Positions 9,600 to 56,820 of a DNA stretch of 64,000 nt are shown here, one piece after another (within the stretch, counting starts at the first letter, position 1; each line of letters begins with the position of its first letter). The notes beneath the pieces were generated by a model. It had not been told where the DNA came from. It saw only the letters and a list, made by a program, of their open reading frames with translations, and ran no database searches. The stretch spans positions 310,001-374,000 of the forward strand of contig JBDOQK010000007.1 in the NCBI GenBank assembly GCA_040437565.1, in the 5' to 3' direction. Source of the stretch: Albugo candida. Lineage: Eukaryota. The translations under genes were made by a program, and so were the position numbers.

Positions 9600-10265
9600 G
9601 CGCAGGTCTGAATACAAGAAATATGTCACTGCTTGATTTTCAGTAGGATATCCAGTCATGGTATGTGGTTATTACAGAATCTCAGTGGACAGGAAGTCAA
9701 TTATTTATTCACAGAAAAAGTGCTATGAGCGATCATGTGCGGGTGACACAATCAGCACGTTGATCTACTTCTAGCTTTAACGAATTTGATCAAGTATGTC
9801 GCTTTAGTGCGCGTAGACAGGTGAGGTATAATGTGTCAAGATCTGGTAGTGACAGGAGGCAATAAGATGGGATGCAATGTTAAGCCTCTTTTTTTGCCTC
9901 AACCATAAACTTATTACGGAAGATTCTATCTGGCGCTATGTTCAGATAGCGGCCATATCCGCGACAAGTTCCTCGAACATCATCACTACTCTTAGCACTT
10001 GTTCAACTCAATAACGATTCATCGATATAGTCAATCTCATCGGAATCAAAAAAAAAATACGTCAACGGTGATTGATTGTGTGGGGTATCATGAATTGCAC
10101 AGCGATTGTGCAGGCTGGTACCATTGATGAAATCGGTCGAGAAGTAAAGTTGTAACGGTGTATCATTGGTGGGGAATTGATAGTGCTCGATCGAGATTTA
10201 AGGATTAGCTTTCCTTTATCACATAGTCCTATTGTCTTCCTCTCACATACCTAATTTTATGGTCA
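9600..10265. repeat. Decayed segment, inverted homolog of 56060-56820 (part of duplicated block A)
   Basis: The reverse complement shares collinear blocks such as ataggactatgt.ataaa, gcaattcatgatacc.cacacaat, tagtgatgatgttcgaggaa.tt.tcgc and cgtaataag...gaggct.aacat. Confidence 0.8.
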
Positions 10266-10740
10266 AGTATACAAAAACACATTTATCTCAAAGTATACTG
10301 ACTCGTGCAGTATACACGATACTGTAAAATTTCAAATGAGATCCGTATTCCCTTTTATGCGTTTTCCAATTTCACGCACAACCCAACTGGCTGTGATCTG
10401 CGATTGCCGTCCTCTAGATGATGGTACAGGGGTTGCAATATCTCGTTTACTCCTAGGGAAGTATTTTCAACTACACCCGCCGATGACTTCGAGGTTGTTC
10501 GACTTCTATGACGGCAAATGTAAAGTTTTATCTAAGATTCCCTCAGTACCTGTTGTAACGAACAAAATACATGCGCTCCGCATTCAATCGAAAGATACGC
10601 GTGAGCTCAGTTGACCTAAGCATGGGATGCAGCTCGAGACCATCAGGCTGTCTTAAAGACCCTAGACCGTCGCACATTTCGGTTTTGACCCACATTGTTG
10701 TAAAAAAAAGAGCACACCGGTAAGCAATGTAGTATAAGGG

Positions 10741-11070
10741 ATGAACAACACTTTGGCTACGTTCATAGGATCTTCGGGGTAGATACTTCCGGACAGGTCC
10801 ACTGATCTATCCCCTTACTTACTCATCTCCTACACCTGCGGTCATGGACATCAAAGTCATCTCTCAGAACCTGCCGTACTTTTGAGTATCGTCTTGTTGA
10901 CTCCGATCAGCTAAGTTCCATTTCCAAAGTTGTCAGGCATATTCAGTACAAGTCGCTTTTGGATCTTAATTGCTTTCATAGGATGGAACAGCGTACCCAT
11001 TAGAGATAAATGACACGGTCAACTAGGGTTGCAGAATGCTTTAGACTGTACCAGACGTCAGAGAATCCAA
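10741..11070 (+). pseudogene. RCC1-BTB gene pseudogene (deleted inverted copy of 53204-55838)
   Basis: atgaacaaca...cttcggggtagatacttccggacaggtcc matches the RCC1-BTB start atggacaaca...cttcggggcatacagtttcggacaggtgc. About 10835-11065 matches about 54755-54485, including an intron. Large deletions and frameshifts. Confidence 0.8.
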
Positions 11071-11121
11071 ACCGAGCTATGTTAGCATCAATCTCATCTA
11101 CGTGGAAGTACTTAAGGTGCT

Positions 11122-12090
11122 TCATGACATTTCAGAAAGCATGCTAATGAGTCGCATACGACGCATCTTTAAAGACCCGAAAACTGGCACATCGTTGTCA
11201 TGCTTCATGTTTTCATGAGATTTGATAATTTTTGAACCCTGACCTTTCCTTTCTCTCGACATCTTCTTTTGCCAACTCTACGCTAGCAGCAATAGTGAAT
11301 ACAGTATATCAATATCGATTTAACACATTACCTTCTTCTCACNNNNNNNNNNNNNNNNNNNNNNNNNNNNNNNNNNNNNNNNNNNNNNNNNNNNNNNNNN
11401 NNNNNNNNNNNNNNNNNNNNNNNNNNNNNNNNNNNNNNNNNNCATCTTTAAAGACCCGAAAACTGGCACATCGTTGTCATGCTTCATGTTTTCATGAGAT
11501 TTGATAATTTTTGAACCCTGACCTCTCCTTTCTCTCGACATCTTCTTTTGCCAACTCTACGCTAGCAGCAATAGTGAATACAGTATATCAATATCGATTT
11601 AACACATTACCTTCTTCTCACATCCGACAAGGGACGGTCACCCACTTCCTGATGGGCCATTTCCAAAAAAAAAATTCTGCCTTCTGCAAATCCTCTCTAT
11701 CTGACCTGTTTTTCTCCACTCGGTACTTCTTCCAATTTGCTACATCCTTTCCGTCGCTATGACAAATTATCGATAAAAAAAGCCATTCCGACTTGTGCTT
11801 ATTCAGCAACCTGGTAATATAAGCTCATAGTCAGATATTTCCACGGTTTATTACAACATTCAACCATTTTATATATCTATCAAGGTTTACCTTACAAACA
11901 TTCTAAAGTTGCCGTGTTCTTTGACCTTTCCGCACATAAGATTCTCCACTTGTACGATTTCTTCGCCGATATCACCCGTTTGAAAAATAGTACTGCTACG
12001 CATCGCATTTCCCTGATGGAAGCTTTTTCGATTCCCTTTGTACCTGAATGATCGGCATCGGGACTATCATTCGCTCAACTTTGTGAATAT
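11122..12090 (-). pseudogene. DBT: DBT (BCKDH E2) pseudogene, intron-retaining, internally deleted
   Basis: The reverse complement reads ATA TTC ACA AAG (ATG TTC ACA AAG in the intact gene), cgatgccgatcattca, cttccatcaggg, tgatatcggcgaag.aatcg.acaagt, and ends in agcatgct..ctgaaatgtcatga like the DBT stop region. The catalytic-domain exons (about 52080-53035) are missing. Confidence 0.88.
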
Positions 12091-12104
12091 AACGATCCTA
12101 TGTA

Positions 12105-12167
12105 TGTTGAAGTTGCATAAATGCGCACGTAATGATATGTTCCCTTCTTGCCTATAGTACTTACGCT
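12105..12167. promoter_or_regulatory. Conserved DDI1/DBT head-to-head promoter segment (copy 1, upstream of intact DDI1)
   Basis: 63 bp with 6 substitutions against the reverse complement of 51231-51293, visibly better conserved than the flanking pseudogene sequence. Promoter function is inferred from position. Confidence 0.6.
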
Positions 12168-12178
12168 CAGTTCGGACC

Positions 12179-14036
12179 ATGCACCTAACATTCGCATCAT
12201 TCCACGGCGATCATGCAGAACAGATGCAAGTAGATCCGCAACAAACAATTGGGTCATTTCTACCCCAATTGTCGCAAATGGTAATTCATTGTATGTGTAT
12301 AATGCTTGCTATAATATGCTTTTTCATGCGTAGTTCTCGATTCCTGTACAGGAGATAAACGTACAGCACAGAGGTGCCGATTTAGCGCACACTGCCACAG
12401 TCAGATGCTTTATTCATGCGATACTACGAAAGGATCACTAATAGCTGCTCAGTTTCAGAGTTGCGGTATTCAAAAGGATGATTTGCTTTTAATTAAGCGG
12501 AAAGCACCATCTTTGTTGGACACTCCTGCTCCATTTGTGGTCAGAGAAGGCATGCAACTTTATGAAATTCCAGTAAGTAAATCTAAATGACGTCAGTTGA
12601 TATAAAAGGATCTATTTGATAGAGAAATCCATCGCCACAGTTACTCCTCGAAATTTTCGAGAAGAATCCGCAGCTTTTACCACAAGTACGACATAAAATT
12701 GATGTGGCTGGCGCGTCTTAGTGGTTCATGTTCTAGCTGCGTGAAGGGAATGTGGAATTGGCGACTGCGTTAGAGCGTAAGAGCATTCGGGTAATCGTGC
12801 ATGTACTTCAAGGCTGATAATAGGTATTGACAATGTCATGTTGCGCAGGATATTCGAATGGTCTTGATGCAGATGCACATGAAGGAAGCGTCAAGACAAT
12901 ACAAAGAAAATGAAGAAGTTCATACACATTTTGTTCTGAAGAAGCTCCACTGACATCCTTTTCTGGATAGACGGTGGCTCTAGAACGAAATCCGCTTGAT
13001 GCGCAAGCGCAAATCAAAATTGAAGAAACAATTAGACTACGAAACGTACAGCAAAACATGGAAATTGCGATGGAACAGATGCCGGAGGCATTTGCACATG
13101 TCTACATGCTGTACATCCCTTGCGAAGTTAATGATGTACAAGTGCAAGCGTTCGTAGACTCTGGTGCACAATCGACAATCATGTCTTCAGTACTGATTAC
13201 AATTGATACAAGTCTTTTTTCTCATTTGTTGCTGGATAGAGTTGTGCAGAGCGGTGTGGGATCATGAAGCTTGTGGACAAGCGATTTGAAGGAAAAGTGG
13301 GTCTCATCGTGCTACTGATGCCAACATTCCATTGAGTTTCTTTGTGATATAATAAGGCCGTAGGAGTCGGAACAGCCAAAATCATTGGGAGGGTGCACAT
13401 GGCCCCGCTGAAAATTGGCACTTTCTTTTACAACTGTAGCTTTACAATTTTGGAGGAACAGGTGCTGTTCTCCATTGCTTGAATTTTCATCTGGATGAGA
13501 TTCTCTAGGTTTAGACAGTTGATTTTCTCTTCGGATTGGACATGCTGAAGCGCCATCAAGTACATGCACAACAATTACATCATCAATGAACTGTGGTCTC
13601 ACATGTTTTTAAGTGCTGCATTGATTTACACAAAAACGTTCTTCGTCTGCATGAAGCTTCGGGCTTTCACGAGGTCGAGTTTCTTCCCGAGCATGTGAGT
13701 CACCATCGAGTACCAGGCATTATACTAATTACAAATATTCGATAGAAACTACTCGCAAATAAAATCAATGCTTCAAGCAGTGAAAGTGCGACGGAAGCAA
13801 ATTCAGATAGCTCAGCCTGTCAACAAAACTCACAAGTCGCCATCAGCGAGGAAGATATCCGACAGAATGCGATAGAGCAGCTTGTATCGTTTGGATTCGA
13901 ACGGCAGAGGGTATTTGATGCATATTGCGAAGAAATATACTCATAAATAGTGGTGAAGGTCATCCGAGCGCTGGAATCAACCGAATGGAACGCTGAGATT
14001 GCTGCTGGGATCTTGTTTGAAAGTAACAACGCGTAG
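12179..14036 (+). CDS. DDI1: DNA damage-inducible protein 1 (UBL, retroviral-like aspartic protease, UBA), multi-exon
   Basis: Start [21 protein letters not shown] (UBL-like). [89 protein letters not shown]...[14 protein letters not shown] at 14034-14036. Confidence 0.93.
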
Positions 14037-14269
14037 TTGGACCGTTTCTGCTCTTTGATCATTGGATACGGAAATAAATGACAGTAAACCTTTTTGCGTA
14101 TTTGCTTGGCGTTCAAGACTGAAGGATGTCAGTCTGCATCGATAGAGATGCTTTAGGAAGTCGTGACATTTAACGTGATCTCTGCAATTACTAAATGCAT
14201 AATTCAACATGTTTGCAGGCTTTTGGAATGTGTTTTGGCGCTTTACAGGTAGTGAGTATAGAAGGACAA

Positions 14270-15110
14270 ATGTTTCGATGTAGAGAAAGCGTCCTTTTAC
14301 TGGAAAGTATTAATGGAAAATTGATATTCTCCTACACATACATTATCAATCACTTCTGAAACGTATGCTACAATCATGCTCAAGGCTTATCGCTATAGAA
14401 CGGTTTTGACAAAAGTTCAAGTCGAATTGAACGATTGAGAGTGCAGCAANNNNNNNNNNNNNNNNNNNNNNNNNNNNNNNNNNNNNNNNNNNNNNNNNNN
14501 NNNNNNNNNNNNNNNNNNNNNNNNNNNNNNNNNNNNNNNNNNNNNNNNNTGAAGGATGTCAGTCTGCATCGATAGAGATGCTTTAGGAAGTCGTGACATT
14601 TAACGTGATCTCTGCGATTACTAAATGCATAATTCAACATGTTTGCAGGCTTTTGGAATGTGTTTTGGCGCTTTACAGGTAGTGAGTATAGAAGGACAAA
14701 TGTTTCGATGTAGAGAAAGCGTCCTTTTACTGGAAAGTATTAATGGAAAATTGATATTCTCCTACACATACATTATCAATCACTTCTGAAACGTATGCTA
14801 CAATCATGCTCAAGGCTTATCGCTATAGAACGGTTTTGACAAAAGTTTATGTCGAATTGAACGATTGAGAGTGCAGCAAAGAGCTATTGCTCTGACAGAA
14901 ATGAAAACATTGCTACAGAAACCATATTTTTATAGCTTGAACTGGAAAGCGCAGATCAATACGAAAAGCGGAAAAGCGACCGAAACATACAAGAAAAGGG
15001 ATTAATGTGGCAACCAGCCATAAGCTATCTATCGCCAGTCCACAAATTACAGAGCAGCAGGATAAGGCATATGGCCCTCCTTTAGAGAAAAGTACTATCG
15101 TTACTTTCCA
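14270..15110 (+). pseudogene. 5' fragment pseudogene of the DUF1765-like gene (inverted copy of 49570-49090; interval includes an assembly overlap)
   Basis: atgtcgaattgaacg...gctctgacagaaatgaaaacattgctacagaaaccatatttttat matches atgtcgaactaaatgg...gctctcacggaaatgaaagcactacttcaagagccatatttttat. gagcagcagga.aag.ca.at...agta.tatcgtt is also shared. Disrupted by stops and frameshifts. Confidence 0.82.
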
Positions 15111-17531: not shown

Positions 17532-18067
17532 TCATTGACGATATTCCTCGACGCTTGTCTGGCGCTACAATAGCATCGTGATTTTAACAACGTGCTTCGA
17601 AATGGTACAGCGAACCAGCCACTTACAAATTCTGGGTTAAATTCAGCAGATGGCCCAACACTCTTCTCCTTGTCGAAACGCCCACGTCCAAAATTTCCCG
17701 GAGCGGCAGGTCGAGCTGGAATCGCCGCTTGTTTTTTCAAAGTTGCCGGTACGATCTCATCTGGTAAGTGAAGGAATCCACGGAGATAATCGATTCCCTC
17801 ATTTGTCAAATACCAATAAAAGCGCTGCCAGCTAAATGTTTGTTTCACAAAGTTCTTTGACTTGAATGACTGCATCAATTTGATGACCTGAAGATTTGGA
17901 ACATCTATAACATCATGCTTTGGTAGCGAGTAATCCTTCTTCGCTACCATCACACCTTCTGCAAATACGAGCAGTGTGAGCCACACATCTAACCAGTGAA
18001 TTAATACAAGCATACCTTTGAAAAGGTAGGAATATACTGCGATACGATTCTTCTTCGAAACGAGCAT
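17532..18067 (-). CDS. RPS10: 40S ribosomal protein S10 (eS10); exons 18067-18016, 17958-17627, about 17564-17532
   Basis: [26 protein letters not shown]...[57 protein letters not shown] introns of 57 and 62 nt. The last exon is less certain. Confidence 0.95.
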
Positions 18068-18410
18068 TCTTTGTGCTTCTTGCGCCTTACTAATCGCCTG
18101 GACTCGTCTTGTGTAGAGCTTTTCTTCGGAGCCAATCAAAGTCCAACAGTTATGCGTGACGGTTAACTGATATGGGACCGGTTATTAGTCCATTTTATGG
18201 ATTAAGATGCGGTCAAGTCGTTTTGTTGATTACGATACATGAATAGAAATGCGCAGCTTTTAGATGTACAAATGCAGAAATACGACATATATGGTTGCTA
18301 TGGTAATGATTGAGCCATTTCCAGATTATCGAGCTATAAATTCGTCTAACCGACACGGGTCTGTTATATATCATATTGGTAAGTTACATATTGCCGAATT
18401 GTTTGGATCG

Positions 18411-20448: not shown

Positions 20449-20762
20449 GGCTACTAAGTAACGGGCCAATTTAGTAAAAACAACTCGAAAAAACAACCTT
20501 TTTCATCTCTTTCCTCTCGAAAACAATGGTTCAAGTCGACATATCGACACAACCNNNNNNNNNNNNNNNNNNNNNNNNNNNNNNNNNNNNNNNNNNNNNN
20601 NNNNNNNNNNNNNNNNNNNNNNNNNNNNNNNNNNNNNNNNNNNNNNNNNNNNNNCTCACAGGTATTCTCGAAACGTTTTTATATGTATATATGTTATTTA
20701 AGATAGCCTAGGCAACTAGAGAAGTCAGTTAGTCTAATTCTAGTAATATAGACACCTTCAAC
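20434..20762 (+). mobile_element. Insertion flanked by a 17-bp direct repeat TGAGCGCACGGACCCCC (20417-20433 and 20763-20779); body hidden in the N gap; probable non-LTR retrotransposon
   Basis: Exact 17-bp flanking repeat. The 5' end reads ACTTCTCAATTTGCC, then an ORF starts at ATG 20526 (MVQVDISTQ...) and runs into the gap. AT-rich 3' segment without poly(A). This is the only gap lacking a long overlap duplication. Confidence 0.65.
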
Positions 20763-23700
20763 TGAGCGCACGGACCCCCTGCCGGAGGTCGTTAGTTCGA
20801 TTTCCGGCAGTGTGGGCAGCGGTTTGAGCCCACCCAAGCAATAAGCTTGGAAAATATCTGCCTCCCTAGGTTTGAAGTCAGACTTAAGTGATATTTACAC
20901 GGTCAGGGACTCATGATAGGATAAGGAAGGTAGTTAAAAAACCAGATAAACAGTGTAATGAAATCCTTGACAATATGAGCTAGAGTAGAATAACTGTATT
21001 TTTTTTGTGTGTTGGCATCCACAATATGATATTTTGAGGTTTTTTCAGATAAATTGCCACAAAAAATCAGAGCGCGTTTTTGGTAGCCGTACGACTTCTG
21101 ACTACCGTGCAAAACTGTAAGAAAACAACCAAGCGTAGCCCTGATGGACTTTTGATGCAAAATTCTGAGAAAAATAAATGAGGCAACAGCGGAGATTGTT
21201 ACCCGACGCTTCCACCTTCTGTATCGCGTTTCTTTGCACTCGTGACAGACTTTCTCTCACTACCTCCACTTAGATGTGACTTTGTCAGCACTGAACATGT
21301 TGAAAACTGTTCCTCGCCTCATGGGCCTCGTGACCTACTTGATTAATTTGCAACGTAAGAGCTAATTTATCGAAACTCTTATATAGTTGAAGGATTGCCG
21401 ACTTGAGTGTAATTGGGTATTCGGCTCGATCGATCGAGTGTTTACGCAGGAACACCTACCTTCTTATAGCAATAGATGCCGCTTCACCATCAGACGTAGA
21501 GCTAGTAGTGTGAACAAACCTTATTGCATCGGTATTGACTGTTTGAACGAAAAACGAAGCGACATAAATGTAGCATCCAATTCTTGCGATTAATGTGCTC
21601 ATTCTGATCAGCACATTAGACCTATTTGATAGATACACACCGAAGTGAGTATTCGCCTCTGCAACAATGACATAATGAAACGATTGCAGGAGTGTNNNNN
21701 NNNNNNNNNNNNNNNNNNNNNNNNNNNNNNNNNNNNNNNNNNNNNNNNNNNNNNNNNNNNNNNNNNNNNNNNNNNNNNNNNNNNNNNNNNNNNNNCTTAT
21801 TGCATCGGTATTGACTGTTTGAACGAAAAACGAAGCGACATAAATGTAGCATCCAATTCTTGCGATTAATGTGCTCATTCTGATCAGCACATTAGACCTA
21901 TTTGATAGATACACACCGAAGTGAGTATTCGCCTCTGCAACAATGACATAATGAAACGATTGCAGGAGTGTATCGTCGACTGTACGACCTCAAAAGAAAA
22001 CAAATCTCATTTTATTCATGGCCTTAACGAATCTGATGTAGATCAGTAGCCTGTGAATTTTATACAAAAGCCTACGCACTTGAATCAGATCATGTTCACG
22101 CTTGCGATATCGAAGGGGCTGATGTCGATGTCAAATTAGCGGGAACGGTTGGAAAAGGAAAGGTAAGGGTGTTATTCACAAAAAAAACTCGCTTTCTGAA
22201 AGTAATTTCTTGCTAATTGATGTAACACTTGAAGGATCTTGCATATCAACTTACCGGGCACCTGATGTAGAATACGGAACTGCTAATCTAGACATCTCCC
22301 AGGAACGCTAGAGTATTTTTGGTATCCATTGCGTGCGATTGTCTCGCGAATTGGGTGATGTAGACTGCCTTTAGCTCTTTTCACAAAATACTAAATTGAA
22401 AAAAGTTTGGCACAAGTACAGCTTTGATCGACACGTTTTATTCAATCATGAGATCAATGGAAAGAAATCACACGCGGATATGATGCATGTGGCACGTCTT
22501 CGGAATTCATTGCGAGTCAGAAGAGTTGGCAACTATTTGCAGGCTCTTACGAGAGTACTGCCTCAGCGACACAAGACCATGAAGAAGCTGCTTGACATTC
22601 CGAAGCCGACAGAGGGATGGGAATCCGGGAAAATAGAAGTCATACCGAATGTTGCGGATTTGCAACGCTCTTCGGAATTTAGGATTCAAACATGAAATAG
22701 GTTCTAGTGCAGAAAGTACCCGAGTGCTACATCGCGTGAAGTGGTGAATTCTTTCGAGATTGCTCGTTTTTAGTTTGTTTTGAGAAGATCTTGTGGCGCA
22801 AGTCGTAGTTAATGCGTTGGGTTGAGGATGCAGATGTTTTGATTGGGCAATGAGTAAATCGATCCATATGAGCCTTAGCAGTTCATCTTTTTGTTCTATT
22901 ACAAACATCTGGCTCCTTTTCGAGAATATCTTATCGATATTAAGCGAAGCGGATGGACGTGATCGAGCATATCTGGAGAAACGCACTGAATGATGGGATC
23001 GTTCGAAAATCACTATTTGGATTGGGCCAAAGAATACTGCAAGGCAGTTCATCGCAGCAACGTCTACAGTGCAGAGACAAAACAGCGGTTGCTGTTTCCA
23101 CCCTACAGTGACGCTCAGGGAAAAGCTACACTACCTGGCCTGAAGAAGCTTTGAGGTTGAGAATTCTGAAGAAAACATTCAGCTTCATAAACAGCGATTA
23201 ATAAAAAGCGAGATATCGCATTCCATGGCTTTGGACTCACTCCATCCAGCTTCAGCGCGGATGGGATGCCCGGAGTGGGTGCCTCTTTGTTGGAGTAATG
23301 GGCTGTATATAAGCGCTGTCCTCACTATCCACGTTCAATAATTGGCAAGGTTTTATTGCCATCCAGAAGCGAGCCCACCGAGTAATGGTAAAGCATACAA
23401 CCATTCCGCGGACACGGAAGAAGGTGCTGCAGCTTCCCATCATATCGAGCCTTGTAAGTAATCAGCAGTATCAATACCTGCTGAACAATTTTATAATGCC
23501 ACTACAGACCTGGCAGACTTAGCCGGATGAATCGATTGTTTCTTGGCATTTAACAGCAATACAGGTCGACTATATTCACGGAAGTAATCTGCACAACAGA
23601 AATCAGCGCTCTAGAAAAATTATTACAAAATACGCGATGCATATGTGGCTCCAAAGAGTGCAACATCGATTTTAGCTGATCATTTTCAGCTTGAATTACG

Positions 23701-26700: not shown

Positions 26701-27052
26701 AAAGGTCGANNNNNNNNNNNNNNNNNNNNNNNNNNNNNNNNNNNNNNNNNNNNNNNNNNNNNNNNNNNNNNNNNNNNNNNNNNNNNNNNNNNNNNNNNNN
26801 NNNNNNNNNCGCTTTAGTCCGCTTCAGCTATTCCAATAAATAGTTCATCGTGGTCATCTTTAGTCCTCACTTTCAAAAAGAAGAACATTGTATACTTAAA
26901 GACAGCTTTAGTCAACTCGATCCGATGTAGATTCGCAAGTATTATCACTACGACTATATACGGTTTGCAAAGCTCAGTCCTTTGAGTGAGTATCTCATGA
27001 TTTATCCCCGCTTTAGTCAACACGACATCCACTGTAATTAAACTTGGGTAGT

Positions 27053-36000: not shown

Positions 36001-36367
36001 NNNNNNNNNNNNNNNNNTCATGAAATGCACTGACCTTGGAATGAGAAGCTTCCAAAGCTAATTGCAACTTCGCCAAATGTTGTTGCACACCGTACAGCGC
36101 AACTCCGACGTCTTCGCGCTTCTTTTTCATTCCGCGTAATTCTTCTTCTTTCTCCCGCAATTCTAAGGTGATTCGATAATCATTGCCCTTCAATTGATCA
36201 TACAAAACTTGCTGAATCCGCTGCATTCGTTCATGACGACCCATATCGACAATAGTCTGTTCTACATTTTCTACTTCGCTTGCTTCATCGCTGCTTGACG
36301 TCAAGCTAGCAGCTTCATCCTCTTCAGATATTCTTTCGCCATTCACACTGCCAGAAACTGGAGCCAT
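33026..36367 (-). CDS. CCDC40: Coiled-coil domain-containing protein 40 (axonemal ruler), apparently intronless, interrupted by two assembly overlaps
   Basis: REDVGVALYGVQQHLAKLQ and ERQLLLWEKKLQLEKE...DPEVGQAE...EKEIHRMRIR...QEQMLQDMEQAI match conserved CCDC40 segments. ORFs 35912-36424, 33670-36030 and 33026-33637 overlap across the gaps. Confidence 0.88.
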
Positions 36368-39392: not shown

Positions 39393-39616
39393 GCTTTTGT
39401 GGTCGTAAATAGTGTGGACAACTTTACGGAGGACACAAGCCACGAATTTGACAGCTCTAAGTCGTGACTTGACAATTGCTTGTATACAATGCTACTATCA
39501 ACATAAAAAAGTGAATCTATAAGTAATCCATTCGTTGTGAAATGCAGCGCTTTTTCAAGTGGCGTGGAAGAGCTTCCGCATTTCATGTAGTGTTACATAA
39601 ATTAGGATATTTCGTA

Positions 39617-48600: not shown

Positions 48601-49570
48601 GAAACCGCAAGTAGATTCCAGCATACATTTCTCCAATATACTGCAAAGATTCCGGTGGAATCGTGAGCGATCGATTCAATTGCAAGGCTGCGAACTGTGC
48701 ACCGCGGCACAACAATTTATGAAATCGCTCCAGCACTTTACCGATACCACATAGGCCATGAACACGAATATATGAATGGTCAATTTTCAGCACGAAATAG
48801 CTCACGCTTACACACCCTCTAAATTAACACTGATTAGATCTGTTTGCTCGAAAAGCTGGTAGCCTTGAATGAACTCCGCTCGCCGACTTATACAGGCCGT
48901 CAACTGCAAAAATATGCCGTGCGACCGATTTCGGATCGGTAAGACTTCGCACATGTCGAGCAAATATTCCCTGAGATGGGTCAAGCAATTGGCTAGTCAT
49001 AGGTAATTATGATTCATTCTGCATCGAAGAGCTAGCGTACCACAAACTCAGCAAGCAAGTTTGACCCATTACTAGTGGAAGCGTCTTCTTGAATGGAATT
49101 GAACGATAATACTGTTCCCAAAGATAGCTATGTGTCTTTTCCTGCTGCTCGATACTTTGGGAAGTGTCCACAGACAAATTACGGCTGTTTGCCACTTTTG
49201 AACGCCCGCTTTCGCGTATTGTTCGATCGATCTTAATGTTCTCCTTTTTATTATCTGCTCCCCAATCTGAATAATAAAAATATGGCTCTTGAAGTAGTGC
49301 TTTCATTTCCGTGAGAGCGACAACCTTCTTCTCCAGCTCCCAGCCATTTAGTTCGACATGCTTCTTATCAAATCCGCCCACTAGGGAATTTGCTTGATCA
49401 TAATTATGGTTCGTACTTCCGCGAGGCGAAAATACTGTCCATTCTCGTGTTTTCGAGAGGTTTCGCAGCTGATGATGCAGTTGAGAAGTAAATCGTAGAT
49501 GTGTAGAAGAAGATTCACGATCGATTGGTGGTGACTCTGTAAAAGAAAACTTTTCACTCCATCCGAACAT
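45629..49570 (-). CDS. Conserved hypothetical multi-exon protein, probable DUF1765 family (contains an assembly overlap)
   Basis: Series of minus-strand exon ORFs. GIYLRFP, WHCIPGYFVLVRAV and FFNFFLHWNEEVRKIFCHLVVYRM resemble DUF1765 proteins. The start is uncertain. Confidence 0.6.
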
Positions 49571-49844
49571 GCTTTCTACGTTAGTAGCTGCTTGTAAGCG
49601 TCAAATTACACGCTTGAAAATTTGCGTACGTGTGGAATCCTGAGTAGTTGTCGCGGGGTACGCGTTTCATGTCCCAACTACCCTGCCGCATCCTTATACT
49701 AGCCGGTCGATGCAGCCATATGCGAGCTGGCATCATTTCCTTTTCAATGTCGAGCAAATAGAGAGTAGAGTTTGCTCTCAATCCGTTTGGCATAGGAATG
49801 ACAGGCTGAGAATGAAGAAATGTGATAAAAGGTTCTACCATTGC

Positions 49845-51219
49845 ATTATTACTCGGAAAAAAATCCTCGCAGCAACCTCAGCGCTCAGTTCCATCGCAAA
49901 ACCATGTTGCTTCGCGATATACATCACACACCCTTTGCTATTCGAATGCAAGCGACATAATCTTTCGGATTGCAGTCTGTCGGATTTCTTCCTCGCTGTT
50001 GCGACTACAGAGCTTTTGTTGACGAGCCAAGATGCCTAAGTTTGCTTCCATCGCATTCTCATAGTCTGAAGTATCGATTTTTTTGCGGATGATTTCCATT
50101 TTCCATGATAAAAATTAGTACCAAAGTCAGATACTCGATGTGGTCACATGCTCGCGAAGAAACCTGACCTCGGAAAGCCTGAAGCTACATGTGGACGATG
50201 AACGTTTTTGTGTAAATTATTGCAGCACTAACGAAATGAGCCATTGATGATGCAATCGCTCTGGAAAGACGACTTTCTAAATCTAGAAAGTCTTATCAAA
50301 TGAAAATCCGTGCAATAGAGAAAAGCACGTGTTGCTCCAGAATTGTAAAGTTGTGGTTTGAGAGAGTCTTGTTCATCCTCCCATGATTTTTTCTGATTGA
50401 TTCCTGTGGCCTAATTCGAAATGAAATAAGTTTACTCAGTGTTAGCATCAGAGGCATGATGGAACCAGATTTCCTTGAAATCGCATTCCCATTTGGCAGC
50501 GCTCTGCATCAGTCTAGTAAGTCTAGTACTATCAAACGAATTTCGCTCTAATGCCATACAAATGAGAAAAGAGTGAAGCTTGAAGAGAAATATAAATATG
50601 TATGTGCCTCTTCATGCTATTTGTATGCTCTTAAAGCTTCCTTCATGTGCATATTTATCGGGATCATTATGGTAGTCTATCCATACTTGGAGAGGAACTA
50701 CTCCGCATGTGTTTCCCAATGCTCTACCACATTCCCCAGAGACAACTACCGCCTATACGCATCAAAAATGGATCCATTGCGACAGGCTTGAGTTAGAAGT
50801 GGCATTTATTCGTCTCAGCTGTCTTACGGGAATTCTGTGAAGTTGCAGGCCTTCTCTGACCCCAAATGTAGCAGGAGTGTGCAAGAAAGATGATGATAGC
50901 CGCTCAACAAGTTATAACCATCATTTTAAATGTCACAGATCCAAAACTAAGCAGCGATTGATTGATTATACCGTAATATCGCATGCATAAACCTTTCGAC
51001 TACGGTAGTGCGCGCTAAAATCAGCGCCTTTGTGTTGTACATTTGCCTCCTGCATAGAATCCAAAGGTCAAGCACTTACAGAGCACAATTTAGCATTTAA
51101 TCTGCATATAATCATTCAACTTTTGTGAAAATGATAGATAAATGATCTGACTCTTTGTTGCGGATCGATTTGCACCTATTCCTCATAATCGCAATGGAAT
51201 TTTGCAATTTCACCTGCGT
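49845..51219 (-). pseudogene. DDI1: DDI1 pseudogene, intron-retaining inverted copy
   Basis: The reverse complement aligns collinearly with 12179-14036: start ATG->ACG, gatccgcaacaaa, cactcctgct.catttg.ggtcagagaaggc.tgcaactt, atgcacatgaaggaagc, atttacacaaaaacgttc.tcgtc, cagcgaggaaga.atccgacaga. The segment carrying the DSGAQ motif is deleted. Many stops. Confidence 0.92.
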
Positions 51220-51230
51220 GGCTCGGATTA

Positions 51231-51293
51231 AGCGTAAGTGCTGTATGCAAGAAGGGAACATAGCATTATGTGCGCATATATGCAACTTCAACA
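51231..51293. promoter_or_regulatory. Conserved DDI1/DBT head-to-head promoter segment (copy 2, upstream of intact DBT)
   Basis: Inverted homolog of 12105-12167 (57/63 identical). Confidence 0.6.
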
Positions 51294-51303
51294 TCGGATC
51301 GTA

Positions 51304-53114
51304 ATGTTCACAAAGCATGCGCGAGGGATTGTCCCTACAATTCGATGCCGATCATTCACGTCCTATATGAACCGAAAAAACTTCCATCAGGGGAACGTGC
51401 GATGTGTAGCGATAGTTCCCTTCAAACTGGCTGATATCGGCGAAGGAATCGCACAAGTTGAAATCTTGCAGTGGTTTGTCCGGGAAGGTCAAAAAATACA
51501 GCAATTTGAGAGTGTTTGTCAAGTACAAAGCGATAAAGTCGAATGAATTCATTTCAGTGGACCCAATAGAGAATGACTGAATGTTGTAGGCAACCGTTGA
51601 GATCACCAGCCGATTTGATGGCATTGTGCGGAAAATTCATTACCAAGTTGGTGAATCAGCACACGTCGGAAAAGCTCTCATCGATATCGAGTTAGAAAGA
51701 GGATCTGTCACTCCTCATAGTGACGATAAGGAATGTAAAAAATCGGAAGAAGAAATATCGGGTGGAGATAAATCGGCTCGGATGGAGAAGCTTTCTGGAG
51801 AAGAACAGACAGATTTTGATACCCTGGAAACGGCGCCTCAAATAATAAGTGACCGTTCTTATATTGGATGTGAAAATAAGGTAAGCGATTGAAGTGTTAT
51901 AGATTTAGTCTATTTACACTGGATACTGGAGTAGTTTCTTGCCGCTCCATCCGTTCGACGTTTGGCAAAAGAACATGGTGTCAATTTGAGTGAGCTGGTC
52001 GCAACCGGAACGAAAGGAATGATAACGAAGGAAGACTTGCTCAAATTTATCAAATCTTCGGTAGGCCTGAAGGAGGGACGGAATAGTATTCAAAAAAGAG
52101 ATGCAACCATAGCCTATCCGCTTGAAGATACTGTTCTTCCTATTACTGGTAACGATTGTTTCCTGCGCTGGAATAGGTTGCAGGTTTTTTCATACTTTGC
52201 TTGCTCAACAGGGCTGAGGAAAAAGATGTTCCAAACAATGAGAATGGCACTTCAGATTCCCCAGTTTGGGTATTGTGATGAGGTCCGTCCTTTTCTCCTA
52301 CTCGACTCAATATTCTCAGCGTACGCAAGAACACCGTAAAATGTAGATACAAATGGATGCTTTGCACAAGGTACGCAACGAGATGAAAGGATTGGCGAGT
52401 TTTCGTGATCACAGCTTATCGTACATGCCATTTCTAATCAAGGTGATTATTGACTTCCCCAGTCACAAGAAATGGTGGCCTGACTTTCAATGTAGGCTGC
52501 TTCACTTGCATTAAAACATTATCCGATACTCAATGCTAGGGTCGATGAATGCGGAAGCAAAATGGTACTTCTTGCCGCACACAACATTTCTATTGCAATG
52601 GATACGACAGAAGGCCTCGTTGCGCCAAATATCAAGAACGTCCAGGTTGGTGCATTTTGCAATATGATTAGTTGATTTTTGAACGTGATTTTATCGACAG
52701 TCAAAAGGGATTATGGAAATTGCCGATGAACTGAATCGCTTACAAAAACTTTCAGCTGAAAAAAAGCTAACGCCGTCAGATTTTAAGAACGGAACGTTCA
52801 CGTGCGTGTGGCGCTTTTACATGCAACACATGCAATAATATTATTCCGAATGTAGACTTTCCAACATTGGAAGCATCGGTGGTACATACATGATGCCAGT
52901 CTTGCTGGTTCCTCAGGTTGCAATCGGCGCAATGGGAAGGATTCAAACTCTTCCTCGATTTGACGAAAAAGGGAATACCATACCCGTGAGATTGATGAAT
53001 GTATCATGGAGTGGAGACCATCGCGTTATAGATGGAGCGACAATGTGCCGATTTTCAAATCTTTGGAAAATGTATCTCGAGCGACCCACAAGCATGCTAG
53101 CTGAAATGTCATGA
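51304..53114 (+). CDS. DBT: BCKDH E2 dihydrolipoyl transacylase, multi-exon (alternative start at 51280)
   Basis: Lipoyl domain [13 protein letters not shown]...[17 protein letters not shown]3-binding [11 protein letters not shown], catalytic [10 protein letters not shown] and [19 protein letters not shown]. Confidence 0.95.
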
Positions 53115-53203
53115 AGCATCGAGGGATAACCTTAACGACGCAAGTCATCCCATTTTGCGAACGAGATCGATGCTAACCCAGCTCAATATAATTTATGTGC
53201 TGC

Positions 53204-55838
53204 TTACTGATTCTGGTTCTTTATTGCTACACCATGTCGAGATGCGATACAAAAGAGCTCCTGAAGCAGGCTAGGCGGAAGATCCACAAATGACTGAAGA
53301 CACAACGAAAAGAGATTAAGCTTACACCTGAAGTGAACTTCACATAATGACATTACCTCAAGTGCAATCACTTCCCCGAAATGATCCATGACGAAATCCA
53401 CGCACCGTTTCTTCAGCAAGTGCGTATTTCGAAAATGAGCATTCTGAGACGGCGTTAGCCAGCCCATCAGCAAACTGAGCGAGAGGCTACCTGAAGTACG
53501 ACCACAACGTTGTCTAGGGAAAGCTCTTTGAGGATGTACGTCTCACACATGCTAAAGCAATTAAAATCGGTTTGTTTCTTTGACAAAGAATAAGTTGATG
53601 ATAAATCATGATACCTGCGAAGTTTCTGGACAAGATACTGGTCAGCCAGAGCTAGTAACTCCAAAAGAAATCCTTATATGATAGATTGTGGGTGAGAATT
53701 ATACGAATGATGGAACAAGATCATACGTACCAGTATCAGGCTTAGACATTTGTATGCTTTGCACTTCGTCGGTATACAGAAATTCCAAGAAGACTTCAAA
53801 CACTTCAGGCTGTACATCGTTCATATCAGATGTTATACGTCTTCGAGATTGTAGTCGTACCGAATAATCTGGTATTCTGATCTCTGACAATGATCCTTCA
53901 ATCATTCTTCCATCCAGCATTTTCTCCAACGGCTCACATCGCGCCATCAAAATACAGCTGTGAGCGTGGAGGCGTACGTTTGAAAGTAGGAAGACTACAT
54001 CACTACGCATCGGATTGTTGACCAGTTNNNNNNNNNNNNNNNNNNNNNNNNNNNNNNNNNNNNNNNNNNNNNNNNNNNNNNNNNNNNNNNNNNNNNNNNN
54101 NNNNNNNNNNNNNNNNNNNNNNNNNNNGTCGTACCGAATAATCTGGTATTCTGATCTCTGACAATGATCCTTCAATCATTCTTCCATCCAGCATTTTCTC
54201 CAACGGCTCACATCGCGCCATCAAAATACAGCTGTGAGCGTGGAGGCGTACGTTTGAAAGTAGGAAGACTACATCACTACGCATCGGATTGTTGACCAGT
54301 TCACCAAGATCGTGGCAGAGCGTATGGTGTGTATGTAGTGCACTTTCAGTGCTGGCTTTTGTCGCTGTCAAGCAGATGGAATGATAAAATCCGGAAGCGA
54401 CCTGCAATGAAGTTAGCTCAGCCTCGCTATTTGAGTCGAAATGAAGAACCTTGACAACGAATTTATCGCGAAGAGAAGCAATGATCTGAGGACTGGTACA
54501 GTCTAAAAGATTTCCCAAGCCTAGTTGGCCGTGGTTATTTCTTCCAAATGGATATACTTTGCCATCCTTTGAAAGCACCAGTGTATGATAGCACCCACAA
54601 GCGACTTGTAGTGCTTGAGTCTTAGCCAGTGCATTTATCAGCTATGATCATGACAAGTATAGAAATATCATTAAGCTGATCAGGGTCAACAAGACTGTGC
54701 ATCAAAAGTACAGTAGGTTTCGAGAGGTGTTGTCGATGTCCATGGCCAAGCTGTCCATAGTCATTCCGACCAAATGAGTAAACCAATCCACTTTCTGCCA
54801 ACGCGGCTGTATGGTAATAGCCACAAGCAAGACTTGGCACTATAAGGGAGTCCAAAGGAGCCGCCAAAAGTGAAGGACTCGTGTGGTAGTCGGATGTATC
54901 TCCAGTCCCAAGTTGTCCATGATCATTTTTTCCGAATGCGACGACACCACCACTTGCCAACGACACGACAGTATGATGCTGGCCACAAGCAACCGCTAGA
55001 ACAGGTCGGCAATTAAAATAACTTAACGGAACAGGAACATGTCGGTCCATCCCATCATCAATTCCAAGCTGCCCGAGATCATTCCGACCAAATGCATACA
55101 AGGTCCCTTCCAGGGTCATCACGACCGTATGGAAATAACTACAGGCGACTTCGACTACGTGCTGCGATGCTAAATCTTCTAATTTGGTGGGTGTTGAGAT
55201 GGAAGTTGTGCTGCCGTGTCCTAATTGGCCTCGACTATTGAATCCAAACGTGTAAAGTTCTCCAGAGCCTGGCATGTTCATGTGAGTTGAAGCAAGAGCT
55301 CAGCGTAAGATTGGTACGCACTGGATATCGCTGTGAGATGCTCACATCCATTGGCTGAGCGAATGTTTGCAATTTTCTTGTTGACAAGCGATGGAACCAA
55401 ATGAAGAGATTGCACGCGTGAGGTGCTTCCGATTCCGCACTGACCGCTAATGGTGTGCACGAAGGTAGCCGCTTGCTGAAAGCCCAGATTGGTGGTAGAA
55501 ACGCACCTATCGTTATATCCGCATGTGTACACATCTCCTGATTCTGCGAAACAATCCGTCATGCGTTGATAGTGATCATCAGGACGCATGTGAAGATATA
55601 CCAAAAAGAAAGGCTGTCTGCTCGTTACCGCAGGCGACATCCATTATCTTGACGTTATGGCAGAATAAAATTGGAGTCGGCACTGTTCGATCGACTGTAT
55701 CGTCGTGGCATAGTTCGCCATAAGAATTCTACGGAGCATAGGAGGTGTAGCTGGATGAGCAAGCATGACGATAGATCTCTGCACCTGTCCGAAACTGTAT
55801 GCCCCGAAGGTCTCGTGTGCGATCTTATTGTTGTCCAT
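53204..55838 (-). CDS. RCC1 repeat and BTB domain protein (RCBTB-like), multi-exon
   Basis: Multiple RCC1 repeats (FGRNDYGQLG, VACGQHHT, LACGYYHT) followed by BTB (SDVVFL...HAHSCILMARCEPLEKML, FLEFLYTD, LLALADQY) and BACK-like helices. Confidence 0.9.
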
Positions 55839-56059
55839 ACCTTATAAACTTTATATCGTGTATCGTATCAAAGTGCTTCTGTGTATCATTTGTGGCTCAA
55901 ACCCACAAAGTGTACTACCGTCCAGAGTCTTTATGACAGCCCCAGCACTAACATCAAAAGGCGGAAAATGCGTAGACAGTGCAGGATGCCATCTGACATT
56001 CGTCAGCATAATAAATCTTGCACGATTCATTTATGATCAAAGATAGTTCGTCTTGCTAA

Positions 56060-56820
56060 AGCTGACCGTAAATCAGGTAGGCTAGGGAGAGACGATAGGA
56101 CTATGTAATAAAAAGAAGCTGGCTCCTACAACCTCGACTGAACATGATCGATCAATCAATCCCTGCAACAAAATGATTAACTGATGCATATTACATGATA
56201 TTCGTAGACTGGATCACAATTAATAGGGAAAACACCACTCATGTGATCCTGAACAGCAAGTTAAGTCGTAATTAAGCTGGATTGAGCAGATCGATTACCA
56301 CTACATCAGTGTGAGCGGAAACATTACTTCTTGAACGCTATCGTTGATGATATCAATCTGCACAACCCTTGGGCAATTCATGATACCACACACAATGAAC
56401 CACTACAAATCGATGCTTGATTCCAGTAAGCTTGCCCGTTTGGATAAATGGTGATCAGATCAAAGGAATGCAGAGAATAGTGATGATGTTCGAGGAAATT
56501 ATCGCTGACATGTATGCTGCATGGGAATAAGTACGGGGCAATGCAAAGCTTTCGTAATAAGGTGACGGTCAAGGCACATAAGGAGGCTCAACATCACTTC
56601 CTATTATATTGTGTAACTGCGTAGAGGTCCTGCCAGACCTCAAAACGAATACAGCTCACTTTCCTACGCGTGCAAACGCGACATACCCAATCACAGTCGT
56701 TGAGGACAGTAGAACATTTTGCGCGTGTTCTTGCTGGAGTATTGATCCAGGGTCCTATCGAAGCCAAGATATCATCGCGAACTAACTTCAAGTAGTCTCA
56801 TGCAGCTTGTCTTTAGATCA
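56060..56820. repeat. Decayed segment, inverted homolog of 9600-10265
   Basis: Collinear shared blocks as listed for 9600-10265. Confidence 0.8.

What the first reader, a model, noticed from the sequence alone, without database searches (positions are those of the whole stretch)
12090..12179. One head-to-head promoter split by duplication: copy 1 precedes intact DDI1, copy 2 precedes intact DBT
Seen: DDI1 and DBT start codons lay head-to-head only about 85-90 bp apart. In copy 1 the DBT start is ATA (12090) and DDI1 is intact. In copy 2 the DDI1 start is ACG (51219) and DBT is intact. The intervening 63 bp (12105-12167 vs 51293-51231) is 57/63 identical, better conserved than the surrounding pseudogene DNA. 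Inference: purifying selection kept a bidirectional core promoter in both copies while uncoupling two formerly co-regulated genes. Each copy may still transcribe a pseudogene non-coding RNA.
Basis: partly seen in the sequence, partly recalled or inferred. Interest (0 to 1): 0.75.

Follow-up and report, generated by a model that had tools for sequence, protein, structure and literature searches.

The report
Split head-to-head promoter after duplication
An old inverted duplication in a white-rust oomycete genome copied a back-to-back gene pair, each copy then lost a different gene, and the tiny shared spacer between them stayed the best-conserved piece; this is a tidy but ordinary case of duplicate-gene decay.

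Summary
The sequence facts hold. The window is Albugo candida-like DNA. It carries an old inverted duplication, about 9856-15097 against 56615-49105, at 65-77% identity.

- **Copy 1** keeps an intact 13-exon DDI1 (ATG 12179). Beside it lies a wrecked DBT, whose annotated start is now ATA at 12090.
- **Copy 2** keeps an intact 8-exon DBT (ATG 51304; in-frame ATGs also at 51268 and 51280). Beside it lies a wrecked DDI1, whose start is now ACG at 51219.
- **The spacer** is 84-88 bp. Its central 63 bp is 57/63 identical, the best of 806 windows. Exons are 76% identical and introns 70.5%.

Statistical support is modest:
- P=1.3e-4 against neutral drift.
- P=0.005 against exons for the post-hoc window, and P=0.02-0.04 for the whole ATG-to-ATG spacer defined beforehand.
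- P=0.085 against a model with only one copy constrained, so that model is not rejected.

Coding windows elsewhere reach 54-55/63. No Phytophthora INR or FPR motif and no Rfam family is present.

Promoter function and transcription start sites (TSSs) are inferred from position and upstream-ATG avoidance, not shown. By locus tags, DDI1 and DBT are not neighbours in 5 of 5 other oomycetes, so the pairing looks Albugo-specific.

Verdict: a real, neat, unsurprising case of complementary gene loss that splits a divergent gene pair.

The parts
12105..12167 (.). Conserved 63-bp core of the spacer, copy 1. It lies 12-74 nt upstream of DDI1 ATG 12179. It holds the exactly conserved 16-nt run from 12136 (ATGTTCCCTTCTTGCC tract).
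   Evidence: 57/63 identical to 51293-51231 with no gaps, the best of 806 windows. The longest exact runs in the alignment, 16 nt at 12104 and 16 nt at 12136, both fall here.
51231..51293 (.). Conserved 63-bp core, copy 2. It lies 11-73 nt upstream of the annotated DBT ATG 51304. It contains in-frame ATGs at 51268 and 51280 and an out-of-frame ATG at 51245.
12091..12178 (.). Whole spacer of copy 1, between the dead DBT start (ATA 12090-12088, minus strand) and the live DDI1 ATG. The 11-14 nt next to the dead DBT start carry a 4-bp insertion.
   Evidence: alignment. (scored as 12093-12178): 70/86 columns identical, 85% ungapped.
51220..51303 (.). Whole spacer of copy 2, between the dead DDI1 start (ACG 51219-51217, minus strand) and the live DBT ATG 51304. 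The 11 nt next to the dead DDI1 start are only 6/11 identical to copy 1.
12179..14036 (+). Intact DDI1: 13 exons, 405 aa, 12 GT-AG introns of 48-60 nt. It has a ubiquitin-like N-terminus, a retropepsin domain with DSGAQ, and a UBA-like C-terminus.
   Evidence: Every exon matches A. candida proteins letter for letter: P0009 residues 1-229 and P0010 at 388 of 390 residues. Pfam Asp_protease PF09668, E=1.6e-14. Splice sites and single terminal stop checked.
11115..12118 (-). DBT pseudogene of copy 1. The equivalent of ATG 51268 is now ACG. The equivalent of ATG 51280 is kept (12118-12116) but is followed by a 4-bp insertion and a stop. The equivalent of ATG 51304 is now ATA. Several frameshifting indels and a stop lie in exon 1. 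Only remnants remain of exons 1-3 and of the last exon.
   Evidence: The N-gap at 11343-11442 inside this stretch is flanked by a 179-bp exact duplicate, so it is probably a spurious gap and not missing DBT sequence.
51304..53114 (+). Intact DBT (E2 of the branched-chain 2-oxoacid dehydrogenase): 8 exons, 471 aa from ATG 51304, 7 GT-AG introns of 52-64 nt. It has a lipoyl domain with SDKA, an E3-binding domain, and a catalytic domain with DHRVIDG.
   Evidence: Model built in script and collinear end to end with five DBTs, 50-53% identical to the four oomycete ones. Pfam Biotin_lipoyl, E3_binding and 2-oxoacid_dh on the exons.
49897..51219 (-). DDI1 pseudogene of copy 2. The start is ACG, exon 1 has an in-frame stop, the first splice donor GT is now TT, and further stops and frameshifts follow. 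No detectable match to most of the retropepsin domain (about residues 188-309 of the A. laibachii protein), apart from one short stop-bearing remnant seen only by tblastx (50299-50358, matching exon 9).
9856..15097 (+). Copy 1 of the duplicated block, as far as similarity is detectable.
   Evidence: blastn and tblastx show collinearity with copy 2.
49105..56615 (-). Copy 2 of the duplicated block, in inverted orientation. It also holds a live RCC1-repeat gene (ORFs 54003-55643, minus strand), whose copy-1 counterpart is a remnant at 10840-11067.
   Evidence: (RCC1 PF00415, E=7.5e-54).

Best explanation
An ancestor of this Albugo candida-like genome carried DDI1 and DBT head-to-head, with only about 85 bp between their start codons. 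A block of at least 5-7.5 kb containing the pair was duplicated in inverted orientation about 37 kb away. That was long ago: intron divergence is about 0.37 substitutions per site.

Ordinary decay of redundant duplicates then killed a different gene in each copy. Copy 1 kept only DDI1. Copy 2 kept DBT and an RCC1-repeat gene.

The spacer is very short. The start site, core promoter and 5' leader of whichever gene survived must therefore lie inside the same roughly 63 bp. That segment has stayed under constraint in both copies. In contrast, the 11-14 bp next to each dead start codon decayed, as did the dead genes themselves.

**Shown:** the duplication, the intact and broken genes, and the conservation peak.

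**Inferred:**
- The peak reflects promoter or leader function.
- Both copies, not just one, are constrained.
- The two start sites sit back-to-back around the exactly conserved pyrimidine tract at 12138-12152.
For: - **Duplication.** The blocks are collinear in blastn and tblastx.
- **Organism.** The DDI1 exon is 100% identical and the DBT exons 95-96% identical to A. candida proteins.
- **Live genes.** DDI1 of copy 1 is exact to annotated A. candida proteins over 13 exons. DBT of copy 2 is full length with its lipoyl-lysine and DHRVIDG motifs.
- **Dead genes.** Each has a mutated start codon, stops, frameshifts and large missing parts.
- **Conservation.** The core is 57/63 identical, the best of 806 windows. 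The spacer is 85% identical, exons 76% and introns 70.5%, all ungapped. The core's divergence is 0.27 of the intron rate.
- **Pattern of decay.** The spacer edges next to each dead start have decayed (4-bp insertion at about 12100; 6/11 identity at 12168-12178), while the centre is kept.
- **Upstream-ATG avoidance.** It places the DDI1 start site at 12138-12178 and the DBT start site at 51246-51303. These two ranges overlap exactly on the conserved tract.
- **Cross-species hint.** The A. laibachii DDI1 model begins MTYLRLVRT-M, which reads through the equivalent of 12152-12178. This implies that stretch is also similar between species.
- **Genome context.** Short head-to-head spacers are normal in this window: RPS10/HCNGP about 200 bp, ZW10/LisH-WD40 about 185-260 bp.
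- **Literature.** Roy et al. 2013 (PMC3599244; passages read) report that oomycete core elements lie within 50-100 nt of the start codon, and that promoters lacking known motifs have pyrimidine-rich regions near the start site.
Against: - No transcript or start-site data could be consulted.
- The Phytophthora INR (YCAYTYY) and FPR (MWTTTNC) motifs are absent from both spacers. The single DPEP-like CAAGAAG is expected 0.41 times per 88 bp by chance.
- The excess conservation is modest. Coding windows elsewhere reach 54-55/63.
- The spacer defined beforehand beats exons only at P=0.02-0.04.
- A model with constraint in one copy only is not rejected (P=0.085 for the core, P=0.39 for the whole spacer).
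- The chance that the best window would fall in the spacer anyway is roughly 0.1-0.17. This is my estimate from 88 bp plus the 63-column window width, out of 868 columns.
- The 14-nt tract recurs nowhere else in the window beyond the two copies (9 matches at up to 3 mismatches against 5.8 expected). It is therefore not a general promoter word here.
Confidence: 0.6

Rival explanations
1. The peak is one-sided constraint or plain sampling noise. Only one copy (for example the DDI1 side of copy 1) is strongly constrained in this segment. The other copy has drifted at the neutral rate and happened to collect few changes. Nothing need be shared or bidirectional.
For: With one copy frozen and the other neutral, expected identity is 83.4%. 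The observed 57/63 has P=0.085, and the whole spacer (70/82) has P=0.39. The window was chosen after looking. Coding windows with only one live copy reach 54-55/63.
Against: In each copy the segment lies 11-74 nt upstream of the live gene's start codon, where a start site and leader must be, so full neutrality in either copy is unlikely. The decay sits specifically at the spacer edges next to the dead start codons. It is the top window of 806.
Confidence: 0.22
2. The conservation reflects protein coding, not a promoter. DBT is translated from ATG 51268 or 51280, so part of the segment encodes an N-terminal extension of its mitochondrial presequence. The DDI1 side is similarly an N-terminal extension, as in the A. 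laibachii gene model.
For: ATGs at 51268 and 51280 are in frame with no stop before 51304. The A. laibachii DDI1 model P0011 starts 9 codons upstream of the conserved Met.
Against: Coding would cover only 14-26 of the 63 bp and constrain copy 2 alone, yet mismatches are spread evenly (2 in 26 bp, 4 in 37 bp). In the window the DDI1 upstream frame has a TAG at 12155-12157 and no upstream in-frame ATG. Other oomycete DDI1 proteins start at the conserved MQLT. The public A. candida DBT model starts at the 51304 Met. From 51304 the presequence is already as long as or longer than in the five other DBTs aligned (four of them oomycete).
Confidence: 0.08
3. A patch of gene conversion between the inverted copies refreshed this short stretch some time after the duplication.
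For: Inverted paralogous copies 37 kb apart can exchange sequence (general knowledge). The identity peak is local.
Against: There is no long identical tract. The longest exact runs are 16 nt, similar to runs of 15, 14 and 13 nt elsewhere in the alignment. Six differences are spread through the 63 bp. The peak coincides exactly with the spacer and not with an arbitrary place.
Confidence: 0.05
4. The segment is another kind of element, such as a small structured RNA, a repeat or a replication-related site, that merely lies between the genes.
For: It contains a 10-bp palindrome, GCATATATGC at 51274-51283, which is one base off in copy 1.
Against: No Rfam family reaches its gathering score anywhere in the 64 kb. 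The palindrome pattern occurs only at these two homologous places, and 6 of 100 shuffles give 2 or more matches. No other copies of the segment exist in the window.
Confidence: 0.03

Closest known systems
Complementary (interleaved, reciprocal) gene loss after block or whole-genome duplication. [quoted passage not shown]
   Same: Two collinear paralogous blocks. Each ancestral gene survives in only one block, so genes that were neighbours end up apart.
   Different: Here it is a local inverted segmental duplication within 64 kb, not a whole-genome event. The dead copies are still visible as pseudogenes. The case splits a pair whose start codons were only about 85 bp apart, so the same short spacer had to survive twice.
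Bidirectional (divergent) promoters of head-to-head gene pairs. Definition as in the abstract listing of PMC2648788: opposite strands, start sites no more than 1 kb apart. Surveys: PMC1487180 and PMC3403606 (search listings only).
   Same: Two genes on opposite strands share a very short spacer that is better conserved than its surroundings.
   Different: Transcription in both directions and shared cis-elements are not shown here. The spacer (84-88 bp between start codons) is far shorter than most described cases. In each present-day copy only one side is a live gene.
Oomycete core promoter elements INR, FPR and DPEP of Phytophthora infestans (Roy et al. 2013, PMC3599244; abstract and passages read).
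   Same: The position fits: that paper places core elements within 50-100 nt of the start codon. It reports pyrimidine-rich regions near start sites in promoters without known motifs. The conserved core contains such a tract, and its complement matches the DPEP pattern SAASMMS.
   Different: No INR or FPR match in either copy, and the DPEP-like match is at chance level. A term search of that paper found 0 occurrences of 'Albugo'.
New non-coding transcripts arising from the unused side of a promoter (Gotea, Petrykowska & Elnitski 2013, PMC3583895; abstract read).
   Same: A promoter with a conserved gene on one side and non-coding, fast-evolving DNA on the other.
   Different: That model concerns unidirectional promoters in vertebrates that become bidirectional. 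Here a formerly two-gene spacer lost one gene per copy, and no transcript evidence exists.

Membership tests
Bidirectional promoter of a head-to-head gene pair | Two genes on opposite strands, diverging, with 5' ends less than 1 kb apart | tested here: met
   Start codons, or their mutated remains, are 88 nt apart in copy 1 and 84 nt apart in copy 2, on opposite strands and diverging. In each present-day copy one of the two is a pseudogene.
Bidirectional promoter of a head-to-head gene pair | Transcription initiates in both directions from the spacer | not testable with these tools
   No transcript or start-site data were available. There is only an inference from upstream-ATG avoidance.
Bidirectional promoter of a head-to-head gene pair | Shared cis-elements are needed by both genes | tested here: inconclusive
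   The centre of the spacer is kept in both copies while its edges decayed. However, one-sided constraint is not rejected (P=0.085).
Oomycete INR / FPR / DPEP core promoter (Roy et al. 2013) | INR YCAYTYY and/or FPR MWTTTNC near the start site, in the sense orientation | tested here: not met
   0 matches on either strand of either spacer.
Oomycete INR / FPR / DPEP core promoter (Roy et al. 2013) | DPEP SAASMMS downstream of the start site | tested here: inconclusive
   One match, CAAGAAG, in the DBT direction and conserved in both copies (12150 minus strand; 51248 plus strand). The expectation is 0.41 per 88 bp on both strands, and the start site is unknown.
Duplicated (unprocessed) pseudogene | Homologous to a live paralogue including introns and flanks, with disabling lesions | tested here: met
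   Introns and flanks align. Both dead copies have mutated starts, stops, frameshifts and missing domains.
Complementary gene loss after segmental duplication | Collinear paralogous blocks in which each gene is intact in only one block, with survivors on different blocks | tested here: met
   DDI1 is alive only in copy 1. DBT and the RCC1-repeat gene are alive only in copy 2.
DDI1 (DNA damage-inducible protein 1) | Ubiquitin-like domain, retropepsin-like domain with D-S/T-G-A, and a UBA domain | tested here: met
   Pfam PF09668, E=1.6e-14, on the exon carrying DSGAQ. All exons are exact to A. candida DDI1 models, whose precomputed Pfam domains include Asp_protease and UBA. The ubiquitin-like region aligns to the A. 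laibachii and Globisporangium DDI1 N-termini.
DBT (E2 of the branched-chain 2-oxoacid dehydrogenase) | Lipoyl domain with the lipoyl-lysine, E3-binding domain, and acyltransferase domain with the DHRxxDG histidine | tested here: met
   Pfam PF00364, PF02817 and PF00198 on the exons. SDKA and DHRVIDG are present, and the model aligns end to end with five DBTs, four of them oomycete.

The most novel reading that the evidence does not exclude
The roughly 63-bp segment is a minimal, intrinsically inseparable bidirectional core promoter. Both halves have stayed under selection in both copies, although each copy now needs only one direction. Each copy therefore still fires into its dead neighbour, producing pseudogene-derived non-coding transcripts. 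If so, this locus is a natural duplicate experiment on how small a divergent promoter can be and on whether its two directions can be uncoupled.
Probability: 0.2. Interest if true: 0.45.

Novelty: new member of a known kind. Interest (0 to 1): 0.25.

Why it matters
The locus is a clean, small worked example of how duplication followed by complementary decay breaks up a divergent gene pair while forcing the same tiny spacer to survive twice. If start-site data confirmed it, the conserved core would point to the functional core promoter of two housekeeping genes in Albugo. A term search of the Phytophthora core-promoter paper found no mention of Albugo, and none of the 12 papers listed by a search on Albugo, intergenic and bidirectional promoter contained the word Albugo. 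It would also offer a compact candidate two-way promoter. It does not change any general picture, because reciprocal loss after duplication and short shared spacers in compact genomes are both well known.

Tried and rejected
- **Rfam.** A scan of the whole window found 0 families at gathering score, so there is no known RNA in the spacer.
- **Phytophthora core-promoter patterns.** INR and FPR were absent, and the DPEP-like match was at chance level.
- **Recurrence of the conserved tract and the palindrome.** Only the two homologous copies stand out.
- **First gene-model script.** Taking the longest open path over GT-AG introns over-extended both genes. It was replaced by homologue-guided models.
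- **Accession-level neighbourhood check.** The adjacency check therefore rests only on locus-tag numbers and contig lengths printed.
- **DNA-level outgroup comparison.** DNA-level comparison with A. laibachii or other oomycetes was not possible.
- **Literature.** Five searches listed no paper on this locus, on Albugo promoters, or on a bidirectional promoter split by duplication in oomycetes. The library covers open-access papers only.
- **Gene conversion.** Considered and set aside because there is no long identical tract.
- **Assembly artefact or haplotig origin of the second copy.** Rejected because the copies differ by about 27-35%.
Full report
**What the window is.** Exons translated from the window match Albugo candida proteins.
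- The DDI1 retropepsin exon (12971-13189) is 100% identical to two A. candida proteins and 92% identical to the A. laibachii DDI1. In that search 125 proteins had E<=0.001 among 152 candidates.
- DBT exon 1 is 96% identical to an A. candida protein (8 hits among 13 candidates). The last DBT exon is 95% identical to the same protein (2142 hits among 2201 candidates, best 120 listed).
- G+C content is 38-45%. Introns are many and short, at 48-64 nt.

The window is therefore DNA of A. candida or a very close relative, an obligately biotrophic oomycete.

**The duplication.** A self-comparison and a translated self-comparison of the two regions show one collinear inverted pair of blocks. Copy 1 spans about 9856-15097 and copy 2 about 56615-49105. 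DNA identity is 65-77% where alignable. The divergence rules out an assembly duplicate or a haplotig.

The order of features is the same in both blocks:
- an unidentified stretch;
- an RCC1-repeat gene (alive in copy 2 at 54003-55643, Pfam RCC1 E=7.5e-54; a stop-riddled remnant in copy 1 at 10840-11067);
- DBT;
- the short spacer;
- DDI1;
- another unidentified stretch (an open 197-codon frame at 49010-49600 in copy 2, interrupted in copy 1).

**The genes.**
- **DDI1 in copy 1 is intact.** It has 13 exons (12179-14036), 405 aa, 12 GT-AG introns and one terminal stop. Each exon matches public A. candida models letter for letter: P0009 residues 1-229 exactly, and P0010 at 388 of 390 residues. 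Its start matches the conserved MQLT/MHLT start of other oomycete DDI1 proteins.
- **DBT in copy 2 is intact.** A homologue-guided model of 8 exons (51304-53114, 471 aa, 7 GT-AG introns of 52-64 nt) aligns end to end with five DBTs and is 50-53% identical to the four oomycete ones. It keeps the SDKA lipoyl-lysine motif, the E3-binding domain and the DHRVIDG catalytic motif.
- **DBT in copy 1 is dead.** Its three in-frame ATG positions read ACG, ATG followed by a 4-bp insertion and a stop, and ATA. Exon 1 carries several frameshifting indels and a stop. Only scraps of exons 1-3 and of the last exon remain.
- **DDI1 in copy 2 is dead.** Its start is ACG, exon 1 has a stop, and the first donor GT is now TT. 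Most of the retropepsin domain (about residues 188-309) is undetectable apart from a short tblastx remnant at 50299-50358.

**The observation.**
- The spacer between start codons is 88 nt in copy 1 and 84 nt in copy 2.
- 12105-12167 against 51293-51231 is 57/63 identical with no gap.
- It is the best 63-column window of 806 in the central alignment. The next separate peak is 54/63, in DDI1 exon 3.
- Among all diverged paralogous BLAST alignments in the window, 0 of 3395 windows reach 57 and 54 reach 54 or more. BLAST's own gap placement scores this place 55.

Identity by class, ungapped:

| Class | Identical / columns | Identity |
|---|---|---|
| 63-bp core | 57/63 | 90.5% |
| Spacer, scored as 12093-12178 | 70/82 | 85% |
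| Exons (one live copy each) | 449/590 | 76% |
| Introns | 91/129 | 70.5% |

**How strong is the evidence?**
- Against neutral intron identity the core has P=1.3e-4, before any correction for having picked the window.
- Against exons, Fisher P=0.0046 for the core. For the spacer defined in advance, P=0.037 ungapped or 0.018 gapped.
- Against a model in which one copy is frozen and the other drifts neutrally (expected identity 83.4%), P=0.085 for the core and P=0.39 for the spacer.

Conservation alone shows constraint somewhere. It does not prove constraint in both copies.

**Why two-sided constraint is still the better reading.**
- In each copy the core lies 11-74 nt upstream of the live gene's start codon. 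In a genome with such short spacers, the start site and leader must be there.
- The decay inside the spacer is not random. A 4-bp insertion lies next to the dead DBT start in copy 1, and the 11 nt next to the dead DDI1 start in copy 2 are only 6/11 identical, while the centre is kept.
- Avoidance of upstream ATGs puts the DDI1 start site at 12138-12178 and the DBT start site at 51246-51303. Mapped onto one copy, these ranges overlap on the exactly conserved tract TGTTCCCTTCTTGCC.
- Roy et al. 2013 (PMC3599244; abstract and passages read) report pyrimidine-rich regions near start sites of Phytophthora promoters that lack INR, FPR and DPEP.
- The A. laibachii DDI1 model begins MTYLRLVRT before the conserved Met. 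This reads through the equivalent of 12152-12178 and implies that stretch is similar between species whose DDI1 proteins are 83% identical.

All of this is inference. No transcript data could be consulted.

**What does not fit or is missing.**
- Neither INR nor FPR occurs in either spacer. The one DPEP-like match (CAAGAAG in the DBT direction, in both copies) is expected 0.41 times by chance.
- No Rfam family matches anywhere in the window.
- The conserved tract and a 10-bp palindrome over ATG 51280 recur nowhere else in the window.

**Coding from ATG 51280.**
- It covers at most 26 of the 63 bp and only constrains copy 2.
- The mismatches are spread evenly across the segment.
- Which of 51268, 51280 or 51304 is the true DBT start remains open.
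- The public A. candida model uses 51304, and from there the presequence is already as long as or longer than in the five other DBTs aligned (four of them oomycete).

**Was the pair anciently co-regulated?** Outgroup DNA could not be fetched. The locus tags and contig lengths printed with the hits speak against an old pairing:

| Species | DDI1 | DBT | Relationship |
|---|---|---|---|
| Pythium oligandrum | Poli38472_006330 | Poli38472_006361 | same printed contig length |
| Phytophthora capsici | DVH05_013429 | DVH05_013627 | same printed contig length |
| Phytophthora ramorum | PRIC1_013503 | PRIC1_013323 | about 180 tags apart |
| Aphanomyces invadans | H310_00880 | H310_09113 | different scaffolds |
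| Aphanomyces stellatus | Aste57867_20624 | Aste57867_11052 | different contigs |

In 5 of 5 species with comparable tags the genes are not neighbours. Several Phytophthora, Pythium and Lagenidium models fuse DDI1 to a DnaJ domain and DBT to a sugar-kinase (FGGY) domain, which suggests different neighbours there. The head-to-head pairing therefore looks specific to the Albugo lineage. Co-regulation of two functionally unrelated genes is untested.

**Comparison with what is known.**
- Complementary loss after duplication, and the resulting break-up of neighbouring genes, is textbook. Byrnes et al. 2006 is seen here only as summarised in PMC2045684 (passages read).
- Short shared spacers are normal in this window. 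Two other head-to-head pairs have about 185-260 bp between likely starts.
- The small twist is that the pair's spacer was so short that the same 63 bp had to be kept twice.
- Five literature searches listed no description of this locus or of the same situation in oomycetes, within an open-access library only.

**Verdict.** This is a new instance of a known kind and of low to moderate interest. The part worth testing is whether the core promoter is truly inseparable and still fires into the pseudogenes.

Noticed in passing
window 337-436, 11343-11442, 14450-14549, 20555-20654, 21696-21795, 24789-24888, 26710-26809, 33712-33811, 35918-36017, 47583-47682, 54028-54127: There are eleven runs of exactly 100 N. 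Each is flanked by a (near-)exact direct duplicate of the adjoining sequence (nine pairs 100% identical, two 99.1-99.4%), for example 23761-24788 = 24889-25916 (1028 bp) and 46800-47582 = 47683-48465 (783 bp). These look like unmerged overlapping contig ends, so the gaps are probably spurious. The duplicated flanks can create false repeated exons, for example in the RCC1-repeat gene around 53854-54301.
   Followed up: partly
window 43533-43877 (+): An open frame with a transketolase pyrimidine-binding domain best matches the beta subunit of human branched-chain 2-oxoacid dehydrogenase E1 (E=1.3e-21). A second subunit of the same enzyme complex as DBT therefore lies only about 7.4 kb from the live DBT.
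   Followed up: partly
window 33048-34598 vs 62733-61681; 46387-46859 vs 61677-61031: Further old inverted paralogous stretches (66-77% identity) link the middle of the window to its right end. One overlaps DUF1765-like frames at 45632-46674. Their order does not fit a single simple inverted duplication together with the DDI1/DBT block.
   Followed up: no
window 51304-53114 compared with public protein P0001: The public A. candida DBT model (381 aa) lacks 90 residues that the homologue-supported model has. The missing part includes VQSDK with the lipoyl-lysine and part of the catalytic domain, so that model looks mis-spliced. Over the aligned part the window's DBT is 357/381 identical to it. 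DBT therefore differs about ten times more between these isolates.
   Followed up: partly
searches with window 51280-51537 and 52857-53111: No A. laibachii DBT appeared among the hits, although the A. laibachii DDI1 did. After A. candida, the next best DBT hit is only 77-80% identical. A. laibachii may lack DBT, or its annotation may.
   Followed up: no
window 12152-12178 compared with protein P0011: The A. laibachii DDI1 model starts nine codons upstream of the conserved Met (MTYLRLVRT). The window has a TAG and no ATG in the matching frame, so the extension is probably an annotation artefact. It incidentally reveals that the 5' flank is similar between species.
   Followed up: partly
window 51274-51283 and 12115-12124: GCATATATGC is a perfect 10-bp palindrome overlapping the in-frame ATG 51280 in copy 2. 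Copy 1 has GCATAAATGC. These are the only two matches to GCATWWATGC in the window (0.42 expected; 6 of 100 shuffles give 2 or more).
   Followed up: partly
window 18067-18264 and 39359-39617: There are two more head-to-head pairs with short spacers. The ribosomal protein S10 gene (start 18067, minus strand) faces an HCNGP-like gene (from 18264, plus strand). A ZW10-like gene (start 39359, minus strand) faces a LisH/WD40 gene (start 39542 or 39617, plus strand).
   Followed up: partly
window 49010-49600 (-) and 14799-15097: A 197-codon open frame with no Pfam match lies downstream of the dead DDI1 in copy 2. Its copy-1 counterpart has stops (shared peptide ALTEMK.LLQ.PYFY). It may be another gene that survives only in copy 2.
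   Followed up: no
hit lists: Several Phytophthora, Pythium and Globisporangium DDI1 models carry a DnaJ domain. Several DBT models carry FGGY sugar-kinase domains. These are probably fused predictions of neighbouring genes, which hints at what flanks these genes outside Albugo.
   Followed up: no
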